This document shows positions 15,578-53,866 of a stretch of DNA of 64,000 bases, in pieces. The stretch is from NCBI GenBank assembly GCA_031413715.1, contig JANOFO010000003.1, positions 75,047-139,046 of the forward strand, written 5' to 3'. Positions within the stretch are counted from its first letter, which is position 1. Each line of letters starts with the position of its first letter. Origin of the DNA: Minisyncoccota bacterium. GTDB lineage: Bacteria; Patescibacteriota; Minisyncoccia; Phycocordibacterales; UBA9973. The notes under the pieces are model-generated. The model was given only the letters and a program-made list of their open reading frames with translations. It did not search any database and was not told where the DNA came from. Position numbers and translations under genes: made by a program.

Positions 15578-15643
15578 GCCGAGAGTGGGAATCGGACCCA
15601 CGTTCCTGCTTTACGAAAGCAGTGTCCCGCCTGCCTACGCTTG
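15578..15643 (-). pseudogene. tRNA-like 3' portion (anticodon arm CTGCT-TTCGTAA-AGCAG, T-arm GTGGG-TCCGATT-CCCAC, acceptor 3' strand) with no intact 5' half
   Basis: Hand fold. No acceptor 5' strand or D-arm precedes it. Its acceptor 3' strand TCTCGGC pairs 6/7 with the GCCGATA fragment at 15717-15757. Confidence 0.35.
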
Positions 15644-15716
15644 AGCCCACGAGGAGAATTGCACTCCTAACCTTCGATTTACGATACCGATGCTCTACTA
15701 ATTGAGCTACATGGGC
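15644..15716 (-). tRNA. tRNA-Thr (anticodon CGT)
   Basis: GCCCATG-TA-GCTC..GAGC-A-TCGGT-ATCGTAA-ATCGA-AGGTT-AGGAG-TGCAATT-CTCCT-CGTGGGC-T. Full cloverleaf with U33 and A37. Confidence 0.75.
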
Positions 15717-46900: not shown

Positions 46901-46987
46901 GCGGAGACGGTGGGATTTGAACCCACGAGGGCGATTAAACCCTGCCTCCTTAGCAAGGAGGTACGTTAGACCACTCCGACACGTCTC
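46901..46987 (-). tRNA. tRNA-Ser (anticodon GCT), class II with a long variable arm
   Basis: GGAGACG...CCTCC-TTGCTAA-GGAGG-(long variable arm)-GTGGG-TTCAAAT-CCCAC-CGTCTCC-G. Confidence 0.8.
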
Positions 46988-47061
46988 CGTATAACGCTTT
47001 TATACCTTATCATATTTAGCATTTTTACTCAAAAAGTAATTATGCTAGTATGAGAGAATTA

Positions 47062-47196: not shown

Positions 47197-47282
47197 GGAA
47201 GCGTGGATGAGTGGTTTAAATCAACGGTTTACTAAACCGTCGTCCCTTTAAAGGACCGTGAGTTCGAATCTCACCGCTTCCG
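47197..47282 (+). tRNA. Class II tRNA (long variable arm). The hand fold gives anticodon loop TTACTAA, so the anticodon reads ACT (Ser) with an unusual A34.
   Basis: Acceptor GGAAGCG/CGCTTCC, a 3-bp D-stem, anticodon stem ACGGT/ACCGT, T-arm GTGAG-TTCGAAT-CTCAC. Isotype uncertain. Confidence 0.6.
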
Positions 47283-48890
47283 CATAGTAATACTTTCAGG
47301 CATGAAAGAAACATTCTGCCTTGATACATAAGTACCTTTATCGGTTCGAACTTGAATCAATTCTTGTTCGGCCTTTTTTAGATTCTCGAATATGAATTTG
47401 AACGGCATATGCAAATCTATAACGAGTTTCTGGTCTTTTATGAGGAGGTTCGAACCAAGACATGAAAAAATGGCTCGCTTAGTTTGCAAGTCTCCCTTTT
47501 GGAACCAGATTTGCGCATAGCGTGCGAAATTAAATGTTCTCTCGCTTAGTTCCATCCATTGTTCCTTAGCCTTGCCGTAGGCCTCTAATTCGGTCTCTAG
47601 GGCGTGTTTCTCCTTCACTAGGCCATTCTTGAGCATCTTGTAATCCTCATTGGTTATAAGCTCATTTTGGGTATTCTCTGCGGAAGTGTATTTAAGCAAC
47701 AAGCTATTTAACTGCGTATCAATTTCAGAAAGCCGCTTCTGCTTGTTAAGCAAAACTTGATGGTATGATTGAGCCTCATTTGAGCGTACTTCATGCAAAT
47801 ACTTTATTGCCCATTGCTGAAATCTTTCAGAAATAGTTATTCCGGAAATCAAAGTGTCAATTTGAGCGGTTAAAGATTCTAGTCTGACACTTCTCTCCGC
47901 ACAGTTCTTGTCTATTCTTTTCGTGCAGTGATAAAAAATATAAGTGTGGGTGTTACCATTCTTTTGTCTTTTTGTTTTTATCTCCGCAGTTATCATTGCT
48001 CCGCAACTTCCACACTTCATTAATCCTGTGAATGCGAAGCTGTGTTTCTTAGGTTTCGGTTTTCCTTTCTTACCGAGAATCACTTGAGCGCGTTCATACT
48101 CCTCATCACTTATCATTGCTTCATGATTACCTTTTTTATTTTCTTCGTTATCAGAATATCCTGCATAAAATCTATTAGAGAATAGCCTGTATACCCCTGC
48201 CTTCCCTAAAGACTTACCTTTATATTTTTTTGTCGTGCGAGTTCTTAAATGAAATTCATTATTGGCAATATCGAGAATTTGCATCACCGTATAATTTCCG
48301 GACAAGAGCATTTGCCACATCCGCTTTACAATATCGAAACGCTCAGGGTCATTAACTATGATGTTGTCTCCTTTATCGCGGATAATAGTGTTTAAGTATC
48401 CCAGCGGCGCCCGACCAGGACGCCAGCCCATCTCTATCTTTGTTTTTAATCCTCGTTTTACATTTACACTCAAGTCTCGAATGTATTGATTTGCAATACC
48501 GAATTCCAGATATGAAAGCAAAGAATTGTCTTCTGGATAATAATCTTTCTCTGGAGTTTTAATGTGCTTTATTTCACCTCGTTGAAGCATGCCTATAATT
48601 ATTCCAGCCTCATCTGGGTTTCGAGCTAGCCTATCTAACTTCCAACATAAAATACCACTGGCTTCACCTTTCTTTATTCGACTAATCATTTCATTAAAGA
48701 CCGGACGATTAGCTGGAGTCTTTGCAGATTTCGATTCTCTTAATTTGCTTACAATCTTAAAAGAAAGTCGCGTTCCTAAATCTTCAAGTGCTTTCTCTTG
48801 GGAATCAAGACTGAGAATCTGCCGGTCATCATCTTCTGTGGACTTTCGGCAGTAAATAAAATAATTATTTTGGTTATGTTTTGTGTTCAT
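47271..48890 (-). CDS. Large serine recombinase (resolvase/invertase N-terminal domain, recombinase domain, zinc ribbon, coiled-coil)
   Basis: YCRKSTEDDDRQ...SLDSQ catalytic Ser region, and CGSCGAMI...CTKRIDKNC zinc ribbon. The 3' end overlaps the tRNA 3' end by 12 nt. Confidence 0.85.
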   Translation of the reverse strand: MNTKHNQNNYFIYCRKSTEDDDRQILSLDSQEKALEDLGTRLSFKIVSKLRESKSAKTPANRPVFNEMISRIKKGEASGILCWKLDRLARNPDEAGIIIGMLQRGEIKHIKTPEKDYYPEDNSLLSYLEFGIANQYIRDLSVNVKRGLKTKIEMGWRPGRAPLGYLNTIIRDKGDNIIVNDPERFDIVKRMWQMLLSGNYTVMQILDIANNEFHLRTRTTKKYKGKSLGKAGVYRLFSNRFYAGYSDNEENKKGNHEAMISDEEYERAQVILGKKGKPKPKKHSFAFTGLMKCGSCGAMITAEIKTKRQKNGNTHTYIFYHCTKRIDKNCAERSVRLESLTAQIDTLISGITISERFQQWAIKYLHEVRSNEAQSYHQVLLNKQKRLSEIDTQLNSLLLKYTSAENTQNELITNEDYKMLKNGLVKEKHALETELEAYGKAKEQWMELSERTFNFARYAQIWFQKGDLQTKRAIFSCLGSNLLIKDQKLVIDLHMPFKFIFENLKKAEQELIQVRTDKGTYVSRQNVSFMPESITMRKR

Positions 48891-49460: not shown

Positions 49461-49790
49461 TTAGAATACTTGGTTAGCTTCCTCGTCATTGAGCTTATAA
49501 ATCTTCTTATAATGCTCTTTATTCGCGGCGTCGTAAGTGTCCCATATTTTAGTTTCCAGTTTATCCCAAATTTCTTTGTCGGGAGCAAAAAATATAGGAT
49601 GATACCTCCCGCCTCCGAGATACGCCGGTGGGGTTAGCCAGAGTTTTTGGCCTCTAGGGTTTTCGTATTGAGATTCCTGAATTCGGAATCCCTTCACCAG
49701 GAAATCACCAAAATCCACACCAACAATTGCCTTAACTTTACCTTCGGTGATTTTGACCTTAATTTTTACTTCATCGAAATCAATTTTCAT
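49461..49790 (-). CDS. SpoVG-like small protein (tentative)
   Basis: VKAIVGVDFGDFLVKGFRIQ...GRYHPIFFAPDK resembles the SpoVG fold. Confidence 0.3.
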   Translation of the reverse strand: MKIDFDEVKIKVKITEGKVKAIVGVDFGDFLVKGFRIQESQYENPRGQKLWLTPPAYLGGGRYHPIFFAPDKEIWDKLETKIWDTYDAANKEHYKKIYKLNDEEANQVF

Positions 49791-50364: not shown

Positions 50365-51903
50365 ATGGCAGACTCAAATACCCAAAACCCACAAATTTAC
50401 GAAATGTATAAACCTCTGAGAAACAGAATGCGTGAATTAAATATCATAGAATCCTTATATGTTATTTGGGCTTATTGTAATCACATGCAGTTTACCAACT
50501 CAAAAATACCTTCGGATATTCAAGTTGATAATTCCTTTCTTAACCCTACACATTGGGCTAAGCGTAATATATACGAATGGGAACTTGAGGTCTTAACGCG
50601 AGAAGTAATTTTGCACGGCGAGGATGCTGGAAGCAGAAAAACACTAAAGAGGTGGGACACTCTAGTCAACGCAGTTAATACATTAAAATCTATTGAGAAT
50701 AACATTGGTGGAATTTTTGTAAATAAAAATAATATCCTCTCCGAGTTATTTAGAATCACCCATCGGCAGTTTCCGTGGCAACAACTTAGACCCACGCATG
50801 AGCATATTATCCGTTACTATAAAATTTTTAACTTTCCACCGGTGAGTACTATCGTAGAACAAACTACGGGACTTACCACAAGACAAATATATTTTCTTCA
50901 TATGGCATTATTAGGTGCATTTACTAAAAGCGCAAAATTAAACTTGCCCTTGGAAATTTCTTTACACGGTTTTACTAAAGAACAAGCAAACAGTTTTGCG
51001 AAATCTTTTGCTAAACCAATCGATGATATTAGAGAAATGGTAAAAAATTCTCAACAGTATAATGATAAGTTTGCATATAACAACCAGAGTATTCACGAAT
51101 ATCCCTTAATTACTTTCCAAGAGAACGGCAGAGAAATAGCTATGTGCCCAATGCCAACTTTGCTATTTTGGCGTGCTAGTAGTGGTTTATATTACAAATT
51201 GATAAATCAACCAGGTTTCGATAAAGCATTTGGAGAGTCTTTCGAAAAATATACAGGTGAAGTTTTACAAAAAGCAGTACAATCCAAAAACATTTCTGTA
51301 ATACCCTCTGTAAAATACAACACCGGAAAAGGTAGAGACGAAGAGACCACAGACTGGATATTAAAAGATACAAATGGATTATTGTTTATAGAATGTAAAA
51401 CCAAAAGAGTTCCTTATACGGCAAAATTTGAATTAGACGCAACACTTGTAGCTACCGAATTTGAGAAGATGGCAAAAATTATTGTACAGACCTATAAATC
51501 AATTAAAGATTACCAAGATGGTCATTACCCAAACTTGCCTTTTGAAAAAGGAAAATCCGTCTACCCACTGGTCGTTACTTTAGAGGAGTGGTATGTTTTT
51601 CAAGGAGATTTTATAAAACCGATAAAGGAAGCTGTACTGAGGTTGTTTAACAAGGAATCACTTCCAGAATCATGGCTAGAAGAAATGCCATATCAAATTT
51701 GCTCAATACAAGAATTTGAGGTTGCAATTCAAACTATTAATCATACTGGAATTAAAGAGTTCATGGAGAAAAAAGTTATGGATAAAGAGAAAAAAACTTG
51801 GTCTATTAATACTTTTGCATCGTCAGAATTCCCAGAGATTTCAAAAAACTATAAACCACTTTTTGTTGATGAGTTTGATGCCCTGTTCTCATCTTTTCTC
51901 TAG
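50365..51903 (+). CDS. Uncharacterised 512-aa protein with a PD-(D/E)xK-like nuclease motif in its C-terminal half
   Basis: DWILKDTNGLLFIECKTK (a D...E-x-K arrangement). No other recognisable domain. Confidence 0.4.
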   Translation: MADSNTQNPQIYEMYKPLRNRMRELNIIESLYVIWAYCNHMQFTNSKIPSDIQVDNSFLNPTHWAKRNIYEWELEVLTREVILHGEDAGSRKTLKRWDTLVNAVNTLKSIENNIGGIFVNKNNILSELFRITHRQFPWQQLRPTHEHIIRYYKIFNFPPVSTIVEQTTGLTTRQIYFLHMALLGAFTKSAKLNLPLEISLHGFTKEQANSFAKSFAKPIDDIREMVKNSQQYNDKFAYNNQSIHEYPLITFQENGREIAMCPMPTLLFWRASSGLYYKLINQPGFDKAFGESFEKYTGEVLQKAVQSKNISVIPSVKYNTGKGRDEETTDWILKDTNGLLFIECKTKRVPYTAKFELDATLVATEFEKMAKIIVQTYKSIKDYQDGHYPNLPFEKGKSVYPLVVTLEEWYVFQGDFIKPIKEAVLRLFNKESLPESWLEEMPYQICSIQEFEVAIQTINHTGIKEFMEKKVMDKEKKTWSINTFASSEFPEISKNYKPLFVDEFDALFSSFL

Positions 51904-52120
51904 AATAAATTAACCTCTAACAGAGGTCATCCCTTCCATAGATTATTTTGTTGTTTTAGGAACTGGTACCACCTAAATTTCTTTTTTCGAAACAGAGAGA
52001 GGAAGACTTTATACCTCTTTGAGTTAATAACTTTATATATAAATGTATACTCAAATATAATAACGGATAGAAAGATACCCCCTTCTATATTAGCTAATAA
52101 GTAAGTGCTATAATTCCCTT

Positions 52121-53866
52121 ATGAGCTCACAAACCCTGGTTTGTCAAAACTGCAAGAAAGACTTTGTAATAGAGTCAGAAGATTTTAGTTACTACGAAAG
52201 AATCAAGGTTCCAGCTCCAACTTGGTGCGCTGATTGTCGTTTAGTAAGACGCATGTCTTACAGGAATGAAAGAAATTTGTATAAAAGAAAATGCCAAGCT
52301 CAAGGGCACGGAGAAGAAATGATTTCAACTTTCTCTCCTGATAAACCAGATACAATCTATTGTCATACTGCTTGGAATGGAGATAGTTGGGATGCAATGA
52401 ATTACGGACGAGAATATGACTTTTCAAAATCATTTTTTGAACAAATGAGGGAGCTTTGGAAAAGTGTTCCTGATGTGGGGCTATTTAATATAAACCCAGT
52501 AAATAGTGATTATTGTAGCATCACTCAAGACAACAAAAATTGCTATCTAGTTATTGGAGGAGATTTCAACGAAGACTCTTTATATTCTTCCTTCATATTC
52601 CACTCCAAAGAATGCATGGATTGTCATTTAGGCTCAAAAATTGAGAAAAATTACGAAACCACAGACTGCATTTCTTGTTTTAATTTGAAATATAGTCGCT
52701 ACTGTGAAACTTGCTATGATAGCGCTTTCCTCTTCAACTGTCGCAATTGTCATGATTGTTTCGGGTGCGTAAATTTAGTAAACAAAGAATATTGTATTTT
52801 CAACAAACAATACACCAAAGAAGAGTACAAAGAAAAAATGAAGGCGATAGATTTTGGCTCTTTCCAGGATATTCAAAAAACAAAAAAAGAATTTGAGGAG
52901 TTTAGTTTGAAGTTTCCAAGGCGCTTCGCAAAAATAGTAAAATCAGTTGATGTCTCAGGAGATTTTATAGAAAACTCTAAAAAATGTACTTACTGCTTTT
53001 CTGTGTTTGGTGGAGCCGAAGAGAGTAAAAATTTATGGCTCATTTATTCTCAAGTAAAGGATTCTTATGACATAGACCACTCTGGGCTCAACTCCATGGA
53101 ATGTTATGAATCTTCAAGCGTATACCCAGGAAACCAAGTAATGTTTTCTAGGTTTATTTGGGATAGCCATCATATTGAATATTCGTATAACTGTAATAAC
53201 TCTTCATACTTATTTGGCTGTGTAGGGGTAAAGAATAAAAAATATTGCATATTTAATAAACAATACGAGCCAGAGGAATGGAAAGTTATGCGAGAAAAAA
53301 TTATTAGCCACATGAAAGAAATGCCATATAAAGATAGAGGGGGTAGAGTATATTCTTATGGAGAGTTTTTTCCTATTGAACTTTCTCCTTTCGCATACAA
53401 CGAAACAGTAGCTCAGGAGTTAAAACCGCTTGATAAAAAAGAAATAGAAGGTTCTGGATATAACTACGCCGAAAATACTGATAGAAATTACAAAATCGAA
53501 AGAGAATACAAAGATTTGCCTGACAATATAGACCAGGTAGATAAAAACATCTTAAACAAAACAATTAGTTGTGCGCATGGTGGAAATTGTAAGGATGGTT
53601 GTACTCAGGCATTCAAAATTACCGAACCGGAACTTTCTTTTTACAATAATTACAGAATACCCCTCCCTAGAATGTGTCCAAACTGTAGGTACGCGGACAG
53701 GTTAAAACAGAAAAATCCTCTCCATCTCTGGCGCAGGACTTGTATGTGCGACAAAAAGCATTCTAATCACACAGGAAATTGCGATATTGAATTTGAAACT
53801 TCTTATTCCCCTGACCGGCCGGAGATAGTGTATTGTGAAAAATGCTATCAGCAAGAAGTTTACTAG
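52121..53866 (+). CDS. Uncharacterised 581-aa cysteine-rich protein with N- and C-terminal zinc-ribbon-like CxxC pairs and an internal duplication
   Basis: CQNCKK...CADCR at the N-terminus and CPNCR...CEKCYQQ at the C-terminus. The segment ..FGCV..K.YCIFNKQY..EE.K is repeated. Many CxxC/CxC clusters. Confidence 0.5.
   Translation: MSSQTLVCQNCKKDFVIESEDFSYYERIKVPAPTWCADCRLVRRMSYRNERNLYKRKCQAQGHGEEMISTFSPDKPDTIYCHTAWNGDSWDAMNYGREYDFSKSFFEQMRELWKSVPDVGLFNINPVNSDYCSITQDNKNCYLVIGGDFNEDSLYSSFIFHSKECMDCHLGSKIEKNYETTDCISCFNLKYSRYCETCYDSAFLFNCRNCHDCFGCVNLVNKEYCIFNKQYTKEEYKEKMKAIDFGSFQDIQKTKKEFEEFSLKFPRRFAKIVKSVDVSGDFIENSKKCTYCFSVFGGAEESKNLWLIYSQVKDSYDIDHSGLNSMECYESSSVYPGNQVMFSRFIWDSHHIEYSYNCNNSSYLFGCVGVKNKKYCIFNKQYEPEEWKVMREKIISHMKEMPYKDRGGRVYSYGEFFPIELSPFAYNETVAQELKPLDKKEIEGSGYNYAENTDRNYKIEREYKDLPDNIDQVDKNILNKTISCAHGGNCKDGCTQAFKITEPELSFYNNYRIPLPRMCPNCRYADRLKQKNPLHLWRRTCMCDKKHSNHTGNCDIEFETSYSPDRPEIVYCEKCYQQEVY

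What the first reader, a model, noticed from the sequence alone, without database searches (positions are those of the whole stretch)
52121..53866. 581-aa cysteine-rich protein with terminal zinc ribbons and an internal duplication
- There are about 45 cysteines, arranged as CxxC/CxC clusters.
- The N-terminus (CQNCKK...WCADCR) and the C-terminus (CPNCRYADR...YCEKCY) look like matching zinc ribbons.
- An internal block (..FGCV..NK.YCIFNKQY.) occurs twice, about 150 aa apart.
- The protein matches no named family.
- It is the second gene of the cargo trio and has operon-like spacing to the third.
- It may be a metal-binding scaffold or a nucleic-acid sensor.
Basis: seen in the sequence. Interest (0 to 1): 0.55.

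Follow-up and report, generated by a model that had tools for sequence, protein, structure and literature searches.

The report
Zinc-finger-capped beta-solenoid protein of Paceibacteria
The gene encodes one member of a very large, unnamed, cysteine-rich protein family found only in Paceibacteria (Candidate Phyla Radiation bacteria); elsewhere its relatives sit in tandem arrays next to "orphan" type IV coupling-protein ATPases, so it is a conserved core gene of unknown function and not mobile-island cargo.

Summary
The ORF is real (52121-53866, +, 581 aa) and strikingly Cys-rich. It has 35 Cys, not about 45: 6.0% against 0.8% in the other window ORFs.

- The N- and C-terminal zinc modules are homologous (HHalign 99.2%).
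- The internal repeat is a roughly 105-residue domain duplication (99.3%).

AlphaFold (pLDDT 90, pTM 0.91) gives treble-clef zinc modules at both ends and two beta-solenoid domains with a 12-residue period. No solved structure resembles it (TM no higher than 0.21), and no named family covers it; the only Pfam match is a sub-threshold zf_Tbcl hit.

The "cargo trio" reading fails:
- More than 6,000 full-length relatives exist, and nearly every organism label is Patescibacteria/Paceibacteria.
- They lie in chromosomal contexts and under strong purifying selection.
- An 83%-identical orthologue has entirely different neighbours.
- The upstream gene is a distant relative of GAPS1, which is a single-protein defence system.

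Family members usually form co-directional arrays of 2-12 paralogues. In a reverse test, 27 of 30 well-flanked loci centred on a VirD4-type ATPase had a family gene within 1.5 kb.

Best guess: a zinc-stabilised scaffold, adaptor or substrate of these exapted coupling-protein ATPases. The biochemical function is unknown.

The parts
52105..52113 (+). Extended -10-like box TGCTATAAT, 7 nt upstream of the ATG, with no Shine-Dalgarno sequence (leaderless-looking start)
   Evidence: Read directly from the sequence. DNA similarity to the orthologue in L092 begins at 52105. A second promoter-like site lies at 52032-52061. These are consensus matches only and function is not shown.
52121..53866 (+). 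Complete CDS, 581 aa plus stop. It is a member of the unnamed Paceibacteria 'FAM' family.
52121..52375 (+). N-terminal zinc module (res 1-85). It holds a treble-clef site C8/C11/C36/C39 followed by a basic helix (R40, R43, R44). The second site is degenerate in this copy (C58, Q61, C81, A84).
   Evidence: Pfam zf_Tbcl res 5-44, sub-threshold. AF2 gives a beta-hairpin plus helices at pLDDT above 90. Cys conservation is 97-99%. Homology to the C-terminal module is shown.
52376..52480 (+). Acidic helical linker (res 86-120) with conserved D88, W90, F105, Q108, L112 and P117
52481..52816 (+). Beta-solenoid domain A (res 121-232). It is Cys-rich, with CxxC every 6 or 12 residues, and ends in the FGC...YCIFNKQY motif.
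   Evidence: Hydrophobic autocorrelation peaks at lag 12 (0.44). AF2 places beta bridges about every 6 residues, pLDDT 63-80. Homology to domain B is shown. The central Cys are only 29-97% conserved.
52817..52915 (+). Helical connector (res 233-265)
   Evidence: AF2 helices 233-240 and 248-262.
52916..53269 (+). Beta-solenoid domain B (res 266-383). It is a duplicate of domain A in which most Cys are replaced. C367 and C376 are conserved.
   Evidence: HHalign probability 99.3%. AF2 pLDDT is about 88-98. Autocorrelation at lag 12 is 0.30.
53270..53569 (+). Long helix (res 384-400) and an acidic alpha/beta middle domain (res 401-483) with the conserved motif GEFFP..SPFAYNET
53570..53863 (+). C-terminal zinc module (res 484-581). 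It carries C484/H486/C490/C494, C519/C522 and C541/C554/C572/C575. The last finger resembles zf_Tbcl_2 of the neighbouring-type ATPases.
   Evidence: The similarity to the ATPase zinc finger is weak (pairwise E 0.023, HHalign E 1.3e-3, probability 18%). Ten of 54 family members weakly hit PF23477.

Best explanation
The gene encodes a soluble cytoplasmic protein of a huge, unnamed family ('FAM') whose organism labels are almost all Patescibacteria/Paceibacteria. Its layout is: treble-clef zinc module, beta-solenoid A, beta-solenoid B, alpha/beta linker, treble-clef zinc module. This layout arose by two internal duplications.

Shown:
- Family membership, the domain anatomy, the conserved Cys ligand sets, strong purifying selection, and a chromosomal (not island-bound) location.
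- A tight, reciprocal genomic linkage of the family to the 'orphan' VirD4/TrwB-type coupling-protein (T4CP) ATPases of Paceibacteria. One of these ATPases carries the same type of zinc finger. CutA1 is often part of the cluster.

Inferred:
- Zinc staples the end modules and part of solenoid A.
- The proteins act as scaffolds, adaptors or substrates that dock on these exapted hexameric ATPases. They probably work as sets of paralogues.
- The window copy belongs to the best-conserved, often solitary subgroup and would act in trans.

The biochemical activity itself is not known.
For: Size and range of the family:
- 6,047 hits, with the top 120 full-length at 52-80% identity.
- 3,751 clusters at 50% identity have E<=1e-3, and 1,463 have E<=1e-30.
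- 589 relatives in GTDB species genomes, nearly all labelled Patescibacteria.

Anatomy: (pLDDT 89.9, pTM 0.91). There is no TM segment or signal peptide.

Selection: against an 83%-identical orthologue there are 222 synonymous and 100 nonsynonymous codon changes, dN is 0.105 and dS is saturated.

Arrays: 133 of 213 family genes are adjacent to another one. All 81 adjacent pairs are co-directional with a median gap of 16 bp. Up to 12 copies occur in 21 kb.

Linkage, forward direction: a T4CP-like ATPase is present in 34 of 84 family-centred loci, directly adjacent in 24, and brackets the array in 16.

Linkage, reverse direction: of 80 metagenome loci centred on the short T4CP, 62 have a family gene within 1.5 kb on the same strand. 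Of the 30 loci with at least 2.5 kb on both sides, 27 do. CutA1 is present in 37.

Window-type orthologues inside such arrays: L007, L091, L122 and L142.

Literature: 5,713 VirD4-type T4CP homologues in 2,918 Patescibacteria genomes, only 148 of them near virB4, with exaptation suggested (PMC12102498).
Against: - No physical interaction, zinc content or activity has been measured. Linkage is not mechanism.
- The window has no T4CP gene within 52 kb upstream or 10 kb downstream.
- The window-type subgroup is often solitary, lying next to TrmB, cca or xerC-region genes. Most array copies are only 30-45% identical to it.
- The similarity between the family's last finger and the ATPase zf_Tbcl_2 is weak.
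- Both locus sets are biased samples. The first is family-centred; the second is centred on sequences close to one ATPase subtype.
- Central Cys positions are variable, so the number of metal sites is uncertain.
Confidence: 0.5

Rival explanations
1. One reading: the gene is the middle gene of a three-gene cargo module of a mobile island (serine recombinase at a tRNA-Ser). It would work with the flanking genes as a sensor or scaffold, for example in defence.
For: - It lies 3.2 kb from a large serine recombinase and next to a GapS1-like PD-(D/E)xK gene.
- Its GC content (35.5%) is like these neighbours and lower than the roughly 41-43% of housekeeping genes in the window.
Against: - Orthologues at 74-83% identity sit in unrelated chromosomal contexts without any of these neighbours.
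- Nucleotide similarity to the nearest relative covers only 52105-53866.
- The flanking genes (clusters c89 and c90) occur next to none of the other family genes.
- There is no PADLOC or PHROGs hit.
- GAPS1 is a self-sufficient single-protein system.
- The intergenic gaps are 217 and 157 bp, with a promoter-like box of the gene's own.
- No att repeats were found.
- The low GC is partly expected from an Asn/Lys/Tyr/Phe-rich composition.
Confidence: 0.05
2. Nucleic-acid-binding housekeeping factor. The two treble-clef modules with basic helices would clamp DNA or RNA, and the solenoids would act as a spacer. The link to FtsK/HerA-superfamily T4CP ATPases would reflect DNA or RNA handling such as uptake, segregation or processing.
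For: - Conserved R40/R43/R44/R48/R51 and R523/R527 follow the CxxC helices.
- Both end modules carry net positive charge across the family (+3.3 and +3.5).
- BFVD fold hits include HNH and Endo VII-type treble-clef proteins.
- Solitary copies lie near cca, RNase T/H, PNPase/S15 and TrmB genes.
- T4CPs are DNA-dependent ATPases (established knowledge; Pfam TrwB_AAD_bind).
Against: - The whole protein is acidic (pI 6.0, net -8).
- The end-module charge is modest.
- There are no catalytic His/Asn residues of HNH type (read from the sequence).
- The neighbourhoods are heterogeneous.
- Nothing was tested directly.
Confidence: 0.2
3. Zinc or other metal buffering, or a redox-switch holdase. In this reading the protein is a folded, Cys-rich metal store or thiol-switch chaperone, analogous in logic to Hsp33 or the DnaJ zinc centres.
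For: - Family members have 22-44 Cys each and occur in many copies per small genome.
- CutA1 (divalent-ion tolerance family) is in 37 of 80 ATPase-centred loci.
- A ZIP transporter lies directly downstream in L088, and FUR plus ZIP lie nearby in L008.
- In one lineage the arrays are inserted between dnaK and dnaJ.
Against: - Most conserved positions are non-Cys (aromatic residues, Asn, Asp), which is not what a metal sponge looks like.
- Half of the central Cys positions are dispensable, and domain B folds without them.
- The dnaK/dnaJ context is lineage-specific: DnaJ appears in 2 of 80 ATPase-centred loci.
- There is no Pfam hit to the DnaJ_CXXCXGXG or Hsp33 families.
Confidence: 0.12
4. Translocated substrates. 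The paralogue arrays would be a repertoire of effectors that the coupling proteins hand to the Patescibacteria type IV secretion system for delivery to the host cell.
For: - The arrays of paralogues lie next to T4CP genes.
- The T4SS is essential for epibiotic growth in a cultivated patescibacterium, while its substrates are unknown (PMC12102498).
Against: - The family is highly conserved and under purifying selection, unlike typical effectors.
- Tightly folded multi-zinc proteins are poor secretion substrates (general knowledge).
- The T4CP genes are mostly far from virB4, and in Ca. Southlakia epibionticum ML1 the T4CP homologue was not found essential for epibiotic growth.
Confidence: 0.08
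5. Fe-S or radical-SAM type redox enzyme.
For: High Cys content, including a CX2CX2CX2C run at residues 207-216.
Against: - There is no CxxxCxxC motif.
- There is no Pfam or NCBIfam hit to any Fe-S family.
- The Cys spacing follows the 6/12-residue solenoid repeat.
- The homologous domain B lacks these Cys.
Confidence: 0.02

Closest known systems
Pfam zf_Tbcl (PF13451) and zf_Tbcl_2 (PF23477), 'probable treble clef' zinc-finger domains
   Same: - Both ends of the protein have the pattern CxxC, about 24 residues, then CxxC-R..RR, with a beta-hairpin followed by a helix.
- There are weak HMM hits.
- The best BFVD fold matches are phage 'putative zinc-ribbon domain' proteins (40 columns at rmsd 0.6).
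- The long T4CP-like ATPases in the partner clusters carry zf_Tbcl_2 above threshold.
   Different: - These Pfam families are short stand-alone domains of unknown function, and scores here are below the gathering cutoff.
- Each end module of this protein is about 80-100 residues with a second finger.
- About 400 residues of solenoid and linker, which no family describes, lie between the end modules.
Beta-solenoid / beta-helix proteins: hexapeptide-repeat left-handed beta-helix enzymes (LpxA/LpxD, GlmU, gamma-carbonic anhydrase) and, by recollection only, the 12-residue Cys-rich beta-helix of the beetle antifreeze protein TmAFP
   Same: - The domains are stacked short beta strands with a regular repeat.
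- Every weak Foldseek hit is a beta-helix protein.
- The repeat is 12 residues and Cys-rich, as in TmAFP (the TmAFP comparison is from memory and was not tested).
   Different: - The period is 12, not 18.
- TM-scores are no higher than 0.21 and E is at least 0.02, so no solved structure is a real match.
- There is no Hexapep Pfam hit.
- The protein is cytoplasmic, so the Cys are more likely metal ligands than disulfides.
Type IV coupling protein (VirD4/TrwB/TraG) systems and their adaptor or substrate proteins
   Same: The family genes are the fixed neighbours of T4CP-family ATPases, much as adaptors, relaxases and substrates often neighbour T4CPs.
   Different: - In Patescibacteria generally only 148 of 5,713 T4CP homologues lie near virB4, and relaxase homologues are rare (109 in 103 genomes).
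- They lack a TM domain of their own; a separate DUF8128-like gene appears to supply it.
- The short form is 65-95% identical across lineages, which is housekeeping-like conservation.
- No known T4CP partner resembles this protein.
GAPS1 single-protein anti-phage system (neighbouring gene only)
   Same: The upstream gene 50365-51903 matches NF047931 over most of the profile (E 1.3e-22) and has a D...ECK PD-(D/E)xK-like motif (and the sequence).
   Different: - The score of 80 bits is far below the cutoff of 320.
- GAPS1 acts alone.
- It is not linked to the family elsewhere.
- It concerns the neighbour, not the gene under study.

Membership tests
Unnamed Paceibacteria 'FAM' family (this report) | Full-length collinear similarity (about 550-610 aa) with the architecture zinc module, two solenoids, zinc module | tested here: met
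   The top 120 hits are full-length at 52-80% identity. Paralogues at 30-45% identity also align end to end.
Unnamed Paceibacteria 'FAM' family (this report) | Conserved Cys set: C8, C11, C36, C39, C213, C367, C484, C494, C519, C522, C541, C554, C572, C575 | tested here: met
   All are present in the window protein. Each is conserved in 89-99% of 182 members.
Pfam zf_Tbcl PF13451 | HMM score at or above the gathering cutoff (24 bits) | tested here: not met
   20.5 bits, E 4.6e-4, res 5-44. Only 7 of 54 relatives match at E<=0.1.
Pfam zf_Tbcl PF13451 | Two CxxC pairs in a treble-clef arrangement (knuckle, hairpin, then a helix whose N-terminus supplies the ligands) | tested here: met
   C8xxC11 and C36xxC39 are present. 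AF2 gives strands 4-7 and 14-17 and helices 19-27 and 37-45 at pLDDT above 90. BFVD matches zinc-ribbon-domain proteins. Metal binding itself was not tested.
Radical SAM / Fe-S cluster proteins | CxxxCxxC or ferredoxin-type CX2CX2CX3C motif, and a family HMM hit | tested here: not met
   Neither motif is present. There are no Pfam or NCBIfam hits.
Hexapeptide-repeat left-handed beta-helix superfamily | 18-residue turns (6-residue sides), and a fold match to LpxA, GlmU or gamma-CA | tested here: not met
   Autocorrelation peaks at lag 12, with none at 6 or 18. Foldseek E is at least 0.022, TM no higher than 0.21 and rmsd above 10 A. There is no Hexapep hit.
Known anti-phage defence systems (PADLOC) / phage protein families (PHROGs) | An HMM match to a component model | tested here: not met
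   There are no PADLOC families, and only noise-level PHROGs hits (E of 0.2 or more).
Mobile-island cargo of the adjacent serine recombinase | Co-inheritance with the recombinase and the flanking genes, and island borders (att repeats) enclosing the gene | tested here: not met
   Orthologues lack these neighbours. DNA similarity ends at the gene borders. No convincing repeats were found. The window's own sister strains with and without the island could not be compared.
T4CP-partnered gene cluster (ATPase, FAM array, CutA1, ATPase) | A T4CP-like ATPase gene within a few genes of the family gene | tested here: not met
   There is no T4CP homologue anywhere in the 64-kb window (tblastn at E<=1e-4). 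The feature is met for the family at large, but this copy is solitary.
DnaJ-type zinc-finger domain | CxxCxGxG repeats and a PF00684 hit | tested here: not met
   There is no such motif in the sequence and no Pfam hit.

The most novel reading that the evidence does not exclude
The family, two exapted VirD4-type ATPases (one split from a DUF8128-like membrane part), and CutA1 together form a previously undescribed, Paceibacteria-wide cellular machine. In it, sets of zinc-capped beta-solenoid paralogues assemble, perhaps end to end through their homologous terminal modules, and are loaded, remodelled or translocated by the coupling-protein-derived motors. This would explain what the roughly two 'orphan' T4CP genes per patescibacterial genome are for.
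Probability: 0.3. Interest if true: 0.8.

Novelty: new variant of a known kind. Interest (0 to 1): 0.55.

Why it matters
Paceibacteria are among the most abundant uncultivated bacteria and have genomes below 1 Mb. Even so, many carry 4-12 copies of this 1.7-kb gene, which is more than 1% of the genome. The copies are under strong purifying selection, and no database gives the family a name, a fold match or a function.

A 2025 survey noted that Patescibacteria have about two VirD4-type coupling-protein genes per genome, almost never near the secretion apparatus, and suggested they may have been exapted (PMC12102498). This work shows that in Paceibacteria those ATPases have a fixed genomic partner, namely this family. 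That gives the open question a concrete, testable handle: pull-downs, co-folding and zinc analysis.

For the window itself, the result is a correction. The gene is a conserved core gene that happens to sit beside a small defence and recombinase island. It is not that island's cargo.

Tried and rejected
- Sequence searches of the protein and of a 54-sequence profile against PDB chains found nothing at E<=10.
- NCBIfam, PADLOC and PHROGs gave nothing useful.
- Pfam scans of 54 relatives and 7 divergent paralogues gave only weak zf_Tbcl and zf_Tbcl_2 hits plus noise.
- The left-handed beta-helix (hexapeptide) idea was rejected because the period is 12 and TM-scores are below 0.21.
- A search for att-type direct or inverted repeats around the recombinase and the gene found only chance-level matches.
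- Rfam at a permissive threshold across 49.7-55.2 kb found nothing credible.
- Literature searches for the Pfam accessions, DUF8128, and Cys-rich or zinc-ribbon proteins of Parcubacteria/Patescibacteria found no description of the family.
- Single-linkage clustering of paralogues at 45-50% identity did not separate orthologous subgroups, so subgroup statements rest on identity to the window protein only.
- The one informative-looking source name, 'Caib/baif family protein' for P0315, has no Pfam support and was dismissed as a legacy mis-annotation.
- GC and GC3 comparison was inconclusive for horizontal origin.
Full report
**1. The observation**

The ORF exists exactly as stated: 52121-53866, + strand, ATG start, 581 aa.
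- It has 35 cysteines (6.0%), not about 45. The other ORFs of the window average 0.8% Cys, and the next richest ORF over 150 aa has 3.8%.
- There are ten non-overlapping CxxC motifs (eleven with overlaps), against 2.0 +/- 1.3 in 10,000 shuffles. There is a single CxC and no CxxxCxxC.
- So the Cys-richness and its CxxC organisation are real and far beyond chance. The count was overestimated.

**2. Internal anatomy**

I cut an alignment of 54 relatives (A1) into segments and compared them profile against profile.
- N-terminal residues 11-81 align to C-terminal residues 494-572 at HHalign probability 99.2%, E 9e-20.
- Residues 139-243 align to residues 290-394 at probability 99.3%, E 9e-21.

A first AlphaFold model was uncertain in the middle (pLDDT 81). 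After adding 73 divergent paralogues to the alignment (A3), the model reached pLDDT 89.9 and pTM 0.91, with no segment below 50. It shows:
- a beta-hairpin-plus-helix zinc module at each end;
- two runs of very short strands spaced about 6 residues apart (res 121-232 and 266-383), each followed by helices;
- a compact alpha/beta region (res 401-483).

Across 182 family members the hydrophobicity profile of both repeat domains autocorrelates at lag 12 (0.44 and 0.30). It does not at lag 6 or 18, and a control region shows no periodicity. The domains are therefore beta-solenoids with 12-residue coils.

The protein has no hydrophobic segment (maximum Kyte-Doolittle over 19 residues is 0.74) and is acidic overall (pI 6.0), with mildly basic end modules. 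It is a soluble cytoplasmic protein.

**3. Which cysteines matter**

Family-wide, fourteen Cys positions are conserved in 89-99% of members:
- C8/C11/C36/C39, the N-terminal treble clef;
- C213 and C367, the equivalent 'FGC' position of each solenoid;
- C484, C494/C519/C522 and C541/C554/C572/C575, in the C-terminal module.

The many Cys of solenoid A are present in only 29-87% of members. Most are absent from the homologous domain B, which AlphaFold nevertheless models with the highest confidence.

My inference is that the end modules are obligate zinc sites. The Cys ladder of solenoid A (CxxC at 6/12-residue spacing) probably adds optional metal staples. Nothing here resembles an Fe-S or radical-SAM site.

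**4. Comparison with named families and folds**

Pfam gives only zf_Tbcl (PF13451, 'probable treble clef') at 20.5 bits, below its 24-bit cutoff. Among 54 relatives, 7 weakly match zf_Tbcl and 10 weakly match zf_Tbcl_2. NCBIfam, PADLOC, PHROGs and PDB sequence and profile searches are empty.

Foldseek of both models against the PDB finds nothing significant. The best E-values are 0.086 and 0.022, TM-scores are no higher than 0.21 and rmsd exceeds 10 A. Every weak hit is a beta-helix protein: LpxD, GlmU, LpxA, gamma-carbonic anhydrase or phi29 gp12.

Against viral models, the best matches are small phage 'putative zinc-ribbon domain' proteins (E 5.8e-3; another hit covers 40 columns at rmsd 0.6 A). 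A hexapeptide-repeat protein and HNH-type treble-clef proteins follow.

The building blocks are therefore of known kinds (treble-clef fingers, beta-solenoid). The protein as a whole has no named family and no solved structural analogue.

**5. It is one of thousands**

- The word-indexed search returned 6,047 significant hits. The top 120 are all full-length, 52-80% identical and 'hypothetical', and their source labels are almost all Paceibacterota, Nomura-, Staskawicz-, Lipton-bacteria and similar.
- The exhaustive search of 50%-identity representatives found 3,751 clusters at E<=1e-3 and 1,463 at E<=1e-30, nearly all 540-610 aa.
A few short contigs labelled Gammaproteobacteria or Bacteroidales look mis-binned.
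- A second search with a profile of divergent paralogues again returned only unnamed proteins.
- No paper in the library describes the family.

**6. Is it island cargo?**

The window places the gene 217 bp downstream of a 512-aa gene and 157 bp upstream of a 330-aa gene. A large serine recombinase lies 3.2 kb upstream, beside tRNA-Ser.

The 512-aa gene is a distant GapS1 relative: NF047931, E 1.3e-22 but 80 bits against a cutoff of 320. GAPS1 is a PD-(D/E)xK anti-phage protein that works alone (bioRxiv 10.1101/2023.03.28.534373).

Evidence against cargo status:
- The closest orthologues (74-78% identity) lie between xerC-type integrase, Exo_endo_phos, TMEM175 and cca genes, next to TrmB, after grpE, or inside ATPase-bracketed arrays.
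- A relative with 83% amino-acid but only 77.7% nucleotide identity sits beside a glycosyltransferase, rpoD, dnaG and rpoC. The nucleotide similarity runs only from 52105 (16 bp before the ATG, including a TGCTATAAT box) to the stop codon.
- Between these two copies, 222 codons differ synonymously and 100 nonsynonymously, dN is 0.105 and dS is saturated. That is strong purifying selection on a vertically maintained gene.
- The two flanking genes occur next to none of the other 213 family genes examined.
- No att-like repeats enclose the gene.

The gene's GC (35.5%) is lower than the window's housekeeping genes. I regard this as inconclusive because the protein is rich in residues with AT-rich codons.

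The most economical reading is that a small recombinase and GapS1-like island landed next to a resident gene.

**7. What the family keeps company with**

I called ORFs in 84 non-redundant family-centred loci and clustered all the proteins.
- These loci hold 213 family genes. 133 are adjacent to another family gene, and all 81 adjacent pairs are co-directional with a median gap of 16 bp. Copy number is 1-9 per locus.
- MAGs represented by two loci have at least 4-6 copies.
- The only other protein cluster that recurs strongly is a VirD4/TrwB/TraG-type ATPase, with Pfam TrwB_AAD_bind, DUF87, TraG-D_C and T4SS-DNA_transf.
- This ATPase is present in 34 loci, directly adjacent on the same strand in 24, and brackets the array (ATPase, FAM x n, ATPase) in 16.

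The ATPase comes in two forms:
- a long form with a C-terminal zf_Tbcl_2 finger above threshold (48.7 bits);
- a short form of about 490 aa with an N-terminal PPPPELP motif.

Neither form has a TM segment. A separate upstream gene with two TM helices is weakly similar to the DUF8128 part of fused versions.

A recurrent order is: secD, secF, HTH protein, small TM protein, DUF8128-like gene, long ATPase, FAM x n, CutA1, short ATPase, then dnaJ in one lineage.

**8. Reverse test**

Family-centred loci cannot show reciprocity. I therefore fetched 80 metagenome loci centred on the short ATPase, which is itself 65-95% identical among ten diverse Paceibacteria.
- 62 of the 80 loci have a family gene within 1.5 kb on the same strand.
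- Of the 30 loci with at least 2.5 kb of sequence on both sides, 27 do.
- CutA1 is present in 37.
- One 21-kb locus (L104) holds 12 family genes.

The linkage is therefore strong in both directions. It matches the report that Patescibacteria carry 5,713 VirD4-type T4CP homologues in 2,918 genomes, only 148 of them near virB4, 'possibly exapted for other functions' (PMC12102498).

**9. Where the window copy fits**

Array copies are mostly 30-45% identical to the window protein. Only four in the ATPase-centred set reach about 50% or more. The window protein belongs to the best-conserved subgroup, which holds 53-58% identity across candidate phyla.

This subgroup is often solitary, next to TrmB or in cca or xerC-region neighbourhoods. 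It also occurs inside ATPase-bracketed arrays (L007, L091).

The 64-kb window contains no second family gene and no T4CP homologue. If the protein works with those ATPases, it does so in trans. Whether the rest of this genome has the array could not be checked.

**10. Mechanism, with status of each step**

Shown:
- the domain architecture;
- the conserved ligand sets;
- solubility;
- purifying selection;
- tandem paralogy;
- the reciprocal linkage to T4CP-type ATPases and the frequent presence of CutA1.

Inferred:
- zinc occupies the end modules and staples part of solenoid A;
- the rigid double solenoid acts as a spacer or scaffold;
- the homologous end modules mediate binding, either to the ATPases or to each other;
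- the ATPases load, remodel or move these proteins or something bound to them.

For binding to the ATPases, the long ATPase form has the same finger type, but the alignment to the family's last finger is weak: pairwise E 0.023, HHalign E 1.3e-3 at 18% probability.

I put about 0.5 on 'zinc-stabilised partner (adaptor, scaffold or substrate) of the exapted T4CP ATPases'. The rivals are:
- a nucleic-acid-binding housekeeping factor (0.2);
- a metal-buffer or redox-switch role (0.12);
- secreted effectors (0.08);
- island cargo or sensor (0.05);
- an Fe-S enzyme (0.02).

**11. Verdict**

Its context-based interpretation is wrong.

The gene is an ordinary member of an extraordinary family: abundant, conserved, multi-copy, Paceibacteria-restricted, unnamed, without a structural analogue, and genomically wedded to orphan coupling-protein ATPases whose role is an acknowledged open question.

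I rate it a new variant of known kinds (zinc-finger-capped beta-solenoid), of moderate-to-good interest. The more novel possibility is that the whole cluster is an undescribed cellular machine.

Noticed in passing
window 50365-51903 (+), with 47271-48890 (-) and 46901-46988 (-): A 512-aa distant GapS1 (GAPS1) homologue: NF047931 E 1.3e-22, 80 bits, far below the cutoff of 320, with a D...ECK PD-(D/E)xK-like motif. It lies next to a large serine recombinase and tRNA-Ser(GCT). This looks like a small defence island in a CPR genome. A recombinase plus weakly GapS1-like pair also occurs in L077 (17801-20792).
   Followed up: partly
window 47197-47283 (+): ARAGORN calls a second 'tRNA-Ser' with the unusual anticodon ACT. 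It overlaps the 3' end of the recombinase gene and lies about 210 bp from the genuine tRNA-Ser. It may be an att-site remnant or duplicated tRNA fragment, or a false call.
   Followed up: no
window 52105-52113 (+): A TGCTATAAT extended -10 box ends 7 nt before the ATG of the Cys-rich gene, and there is no Shine-Dalgarno sequence, which suggests a leaderless mRNA. The box is inside the only non-coding stretch conserved with the orthologue in L092.
   Followed up: partly
L065 18337-19812, L007 9808-11298 and 8 others (alignment A4); loci L095-L174: The short VirD4-type ATPase of Paceibacteria is exceptionally conserved: 65-95% identity to the first sequence among the ten aligned, 78% mean column identity. 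It has no TM segment and starts with a PPPPELP motif. This looks like a housekeeping motor, not a conjugation protein.
   Followed up: partly
L104 3-21464; also L103, L108, L109: Extreme tandem amplification of the family. L104 has 12 copies in 21.5 kb flanking CutA1 and the short ATPase. L103 and L108 have about 6-7 and L109 has 8. These are genomes expected to be under 1 Mb.
   Followed up: partly
L007 1-12406, L016, L025, L026, L055, L082, L083: In one Paceibacteria lineage the ATPase, FAM array, ATPase block is inserted between dnaK and dnaJ, and further family genes follow grpE. This splits the classical heat-shock operon.
   Followed up: partly
L004 7061-9773, L008 7085-9743, L071, L068: Solitary window-type copies are repeatedly preceded by a divergently transcribed TrmB-family regulator gene (PF01978), which is a possible dedicated regulator.
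   Followed up: no
window 49461-49790 (-): A 109-aa ORF with a sub-threshold SpoVG match (25.2 bits against a cutoff of 29.6) lies between the recombinase and the GapS1-like gene.
   Followed up: no
window 15578-15716 (-): Two tRNA-Thr(CGT) calls overlap by 2 nt (15578-15644 and 15643-15716) inside a tRNA cluster. The shorter 67-nt call may be a truncated duplicate.
   Followed up: no
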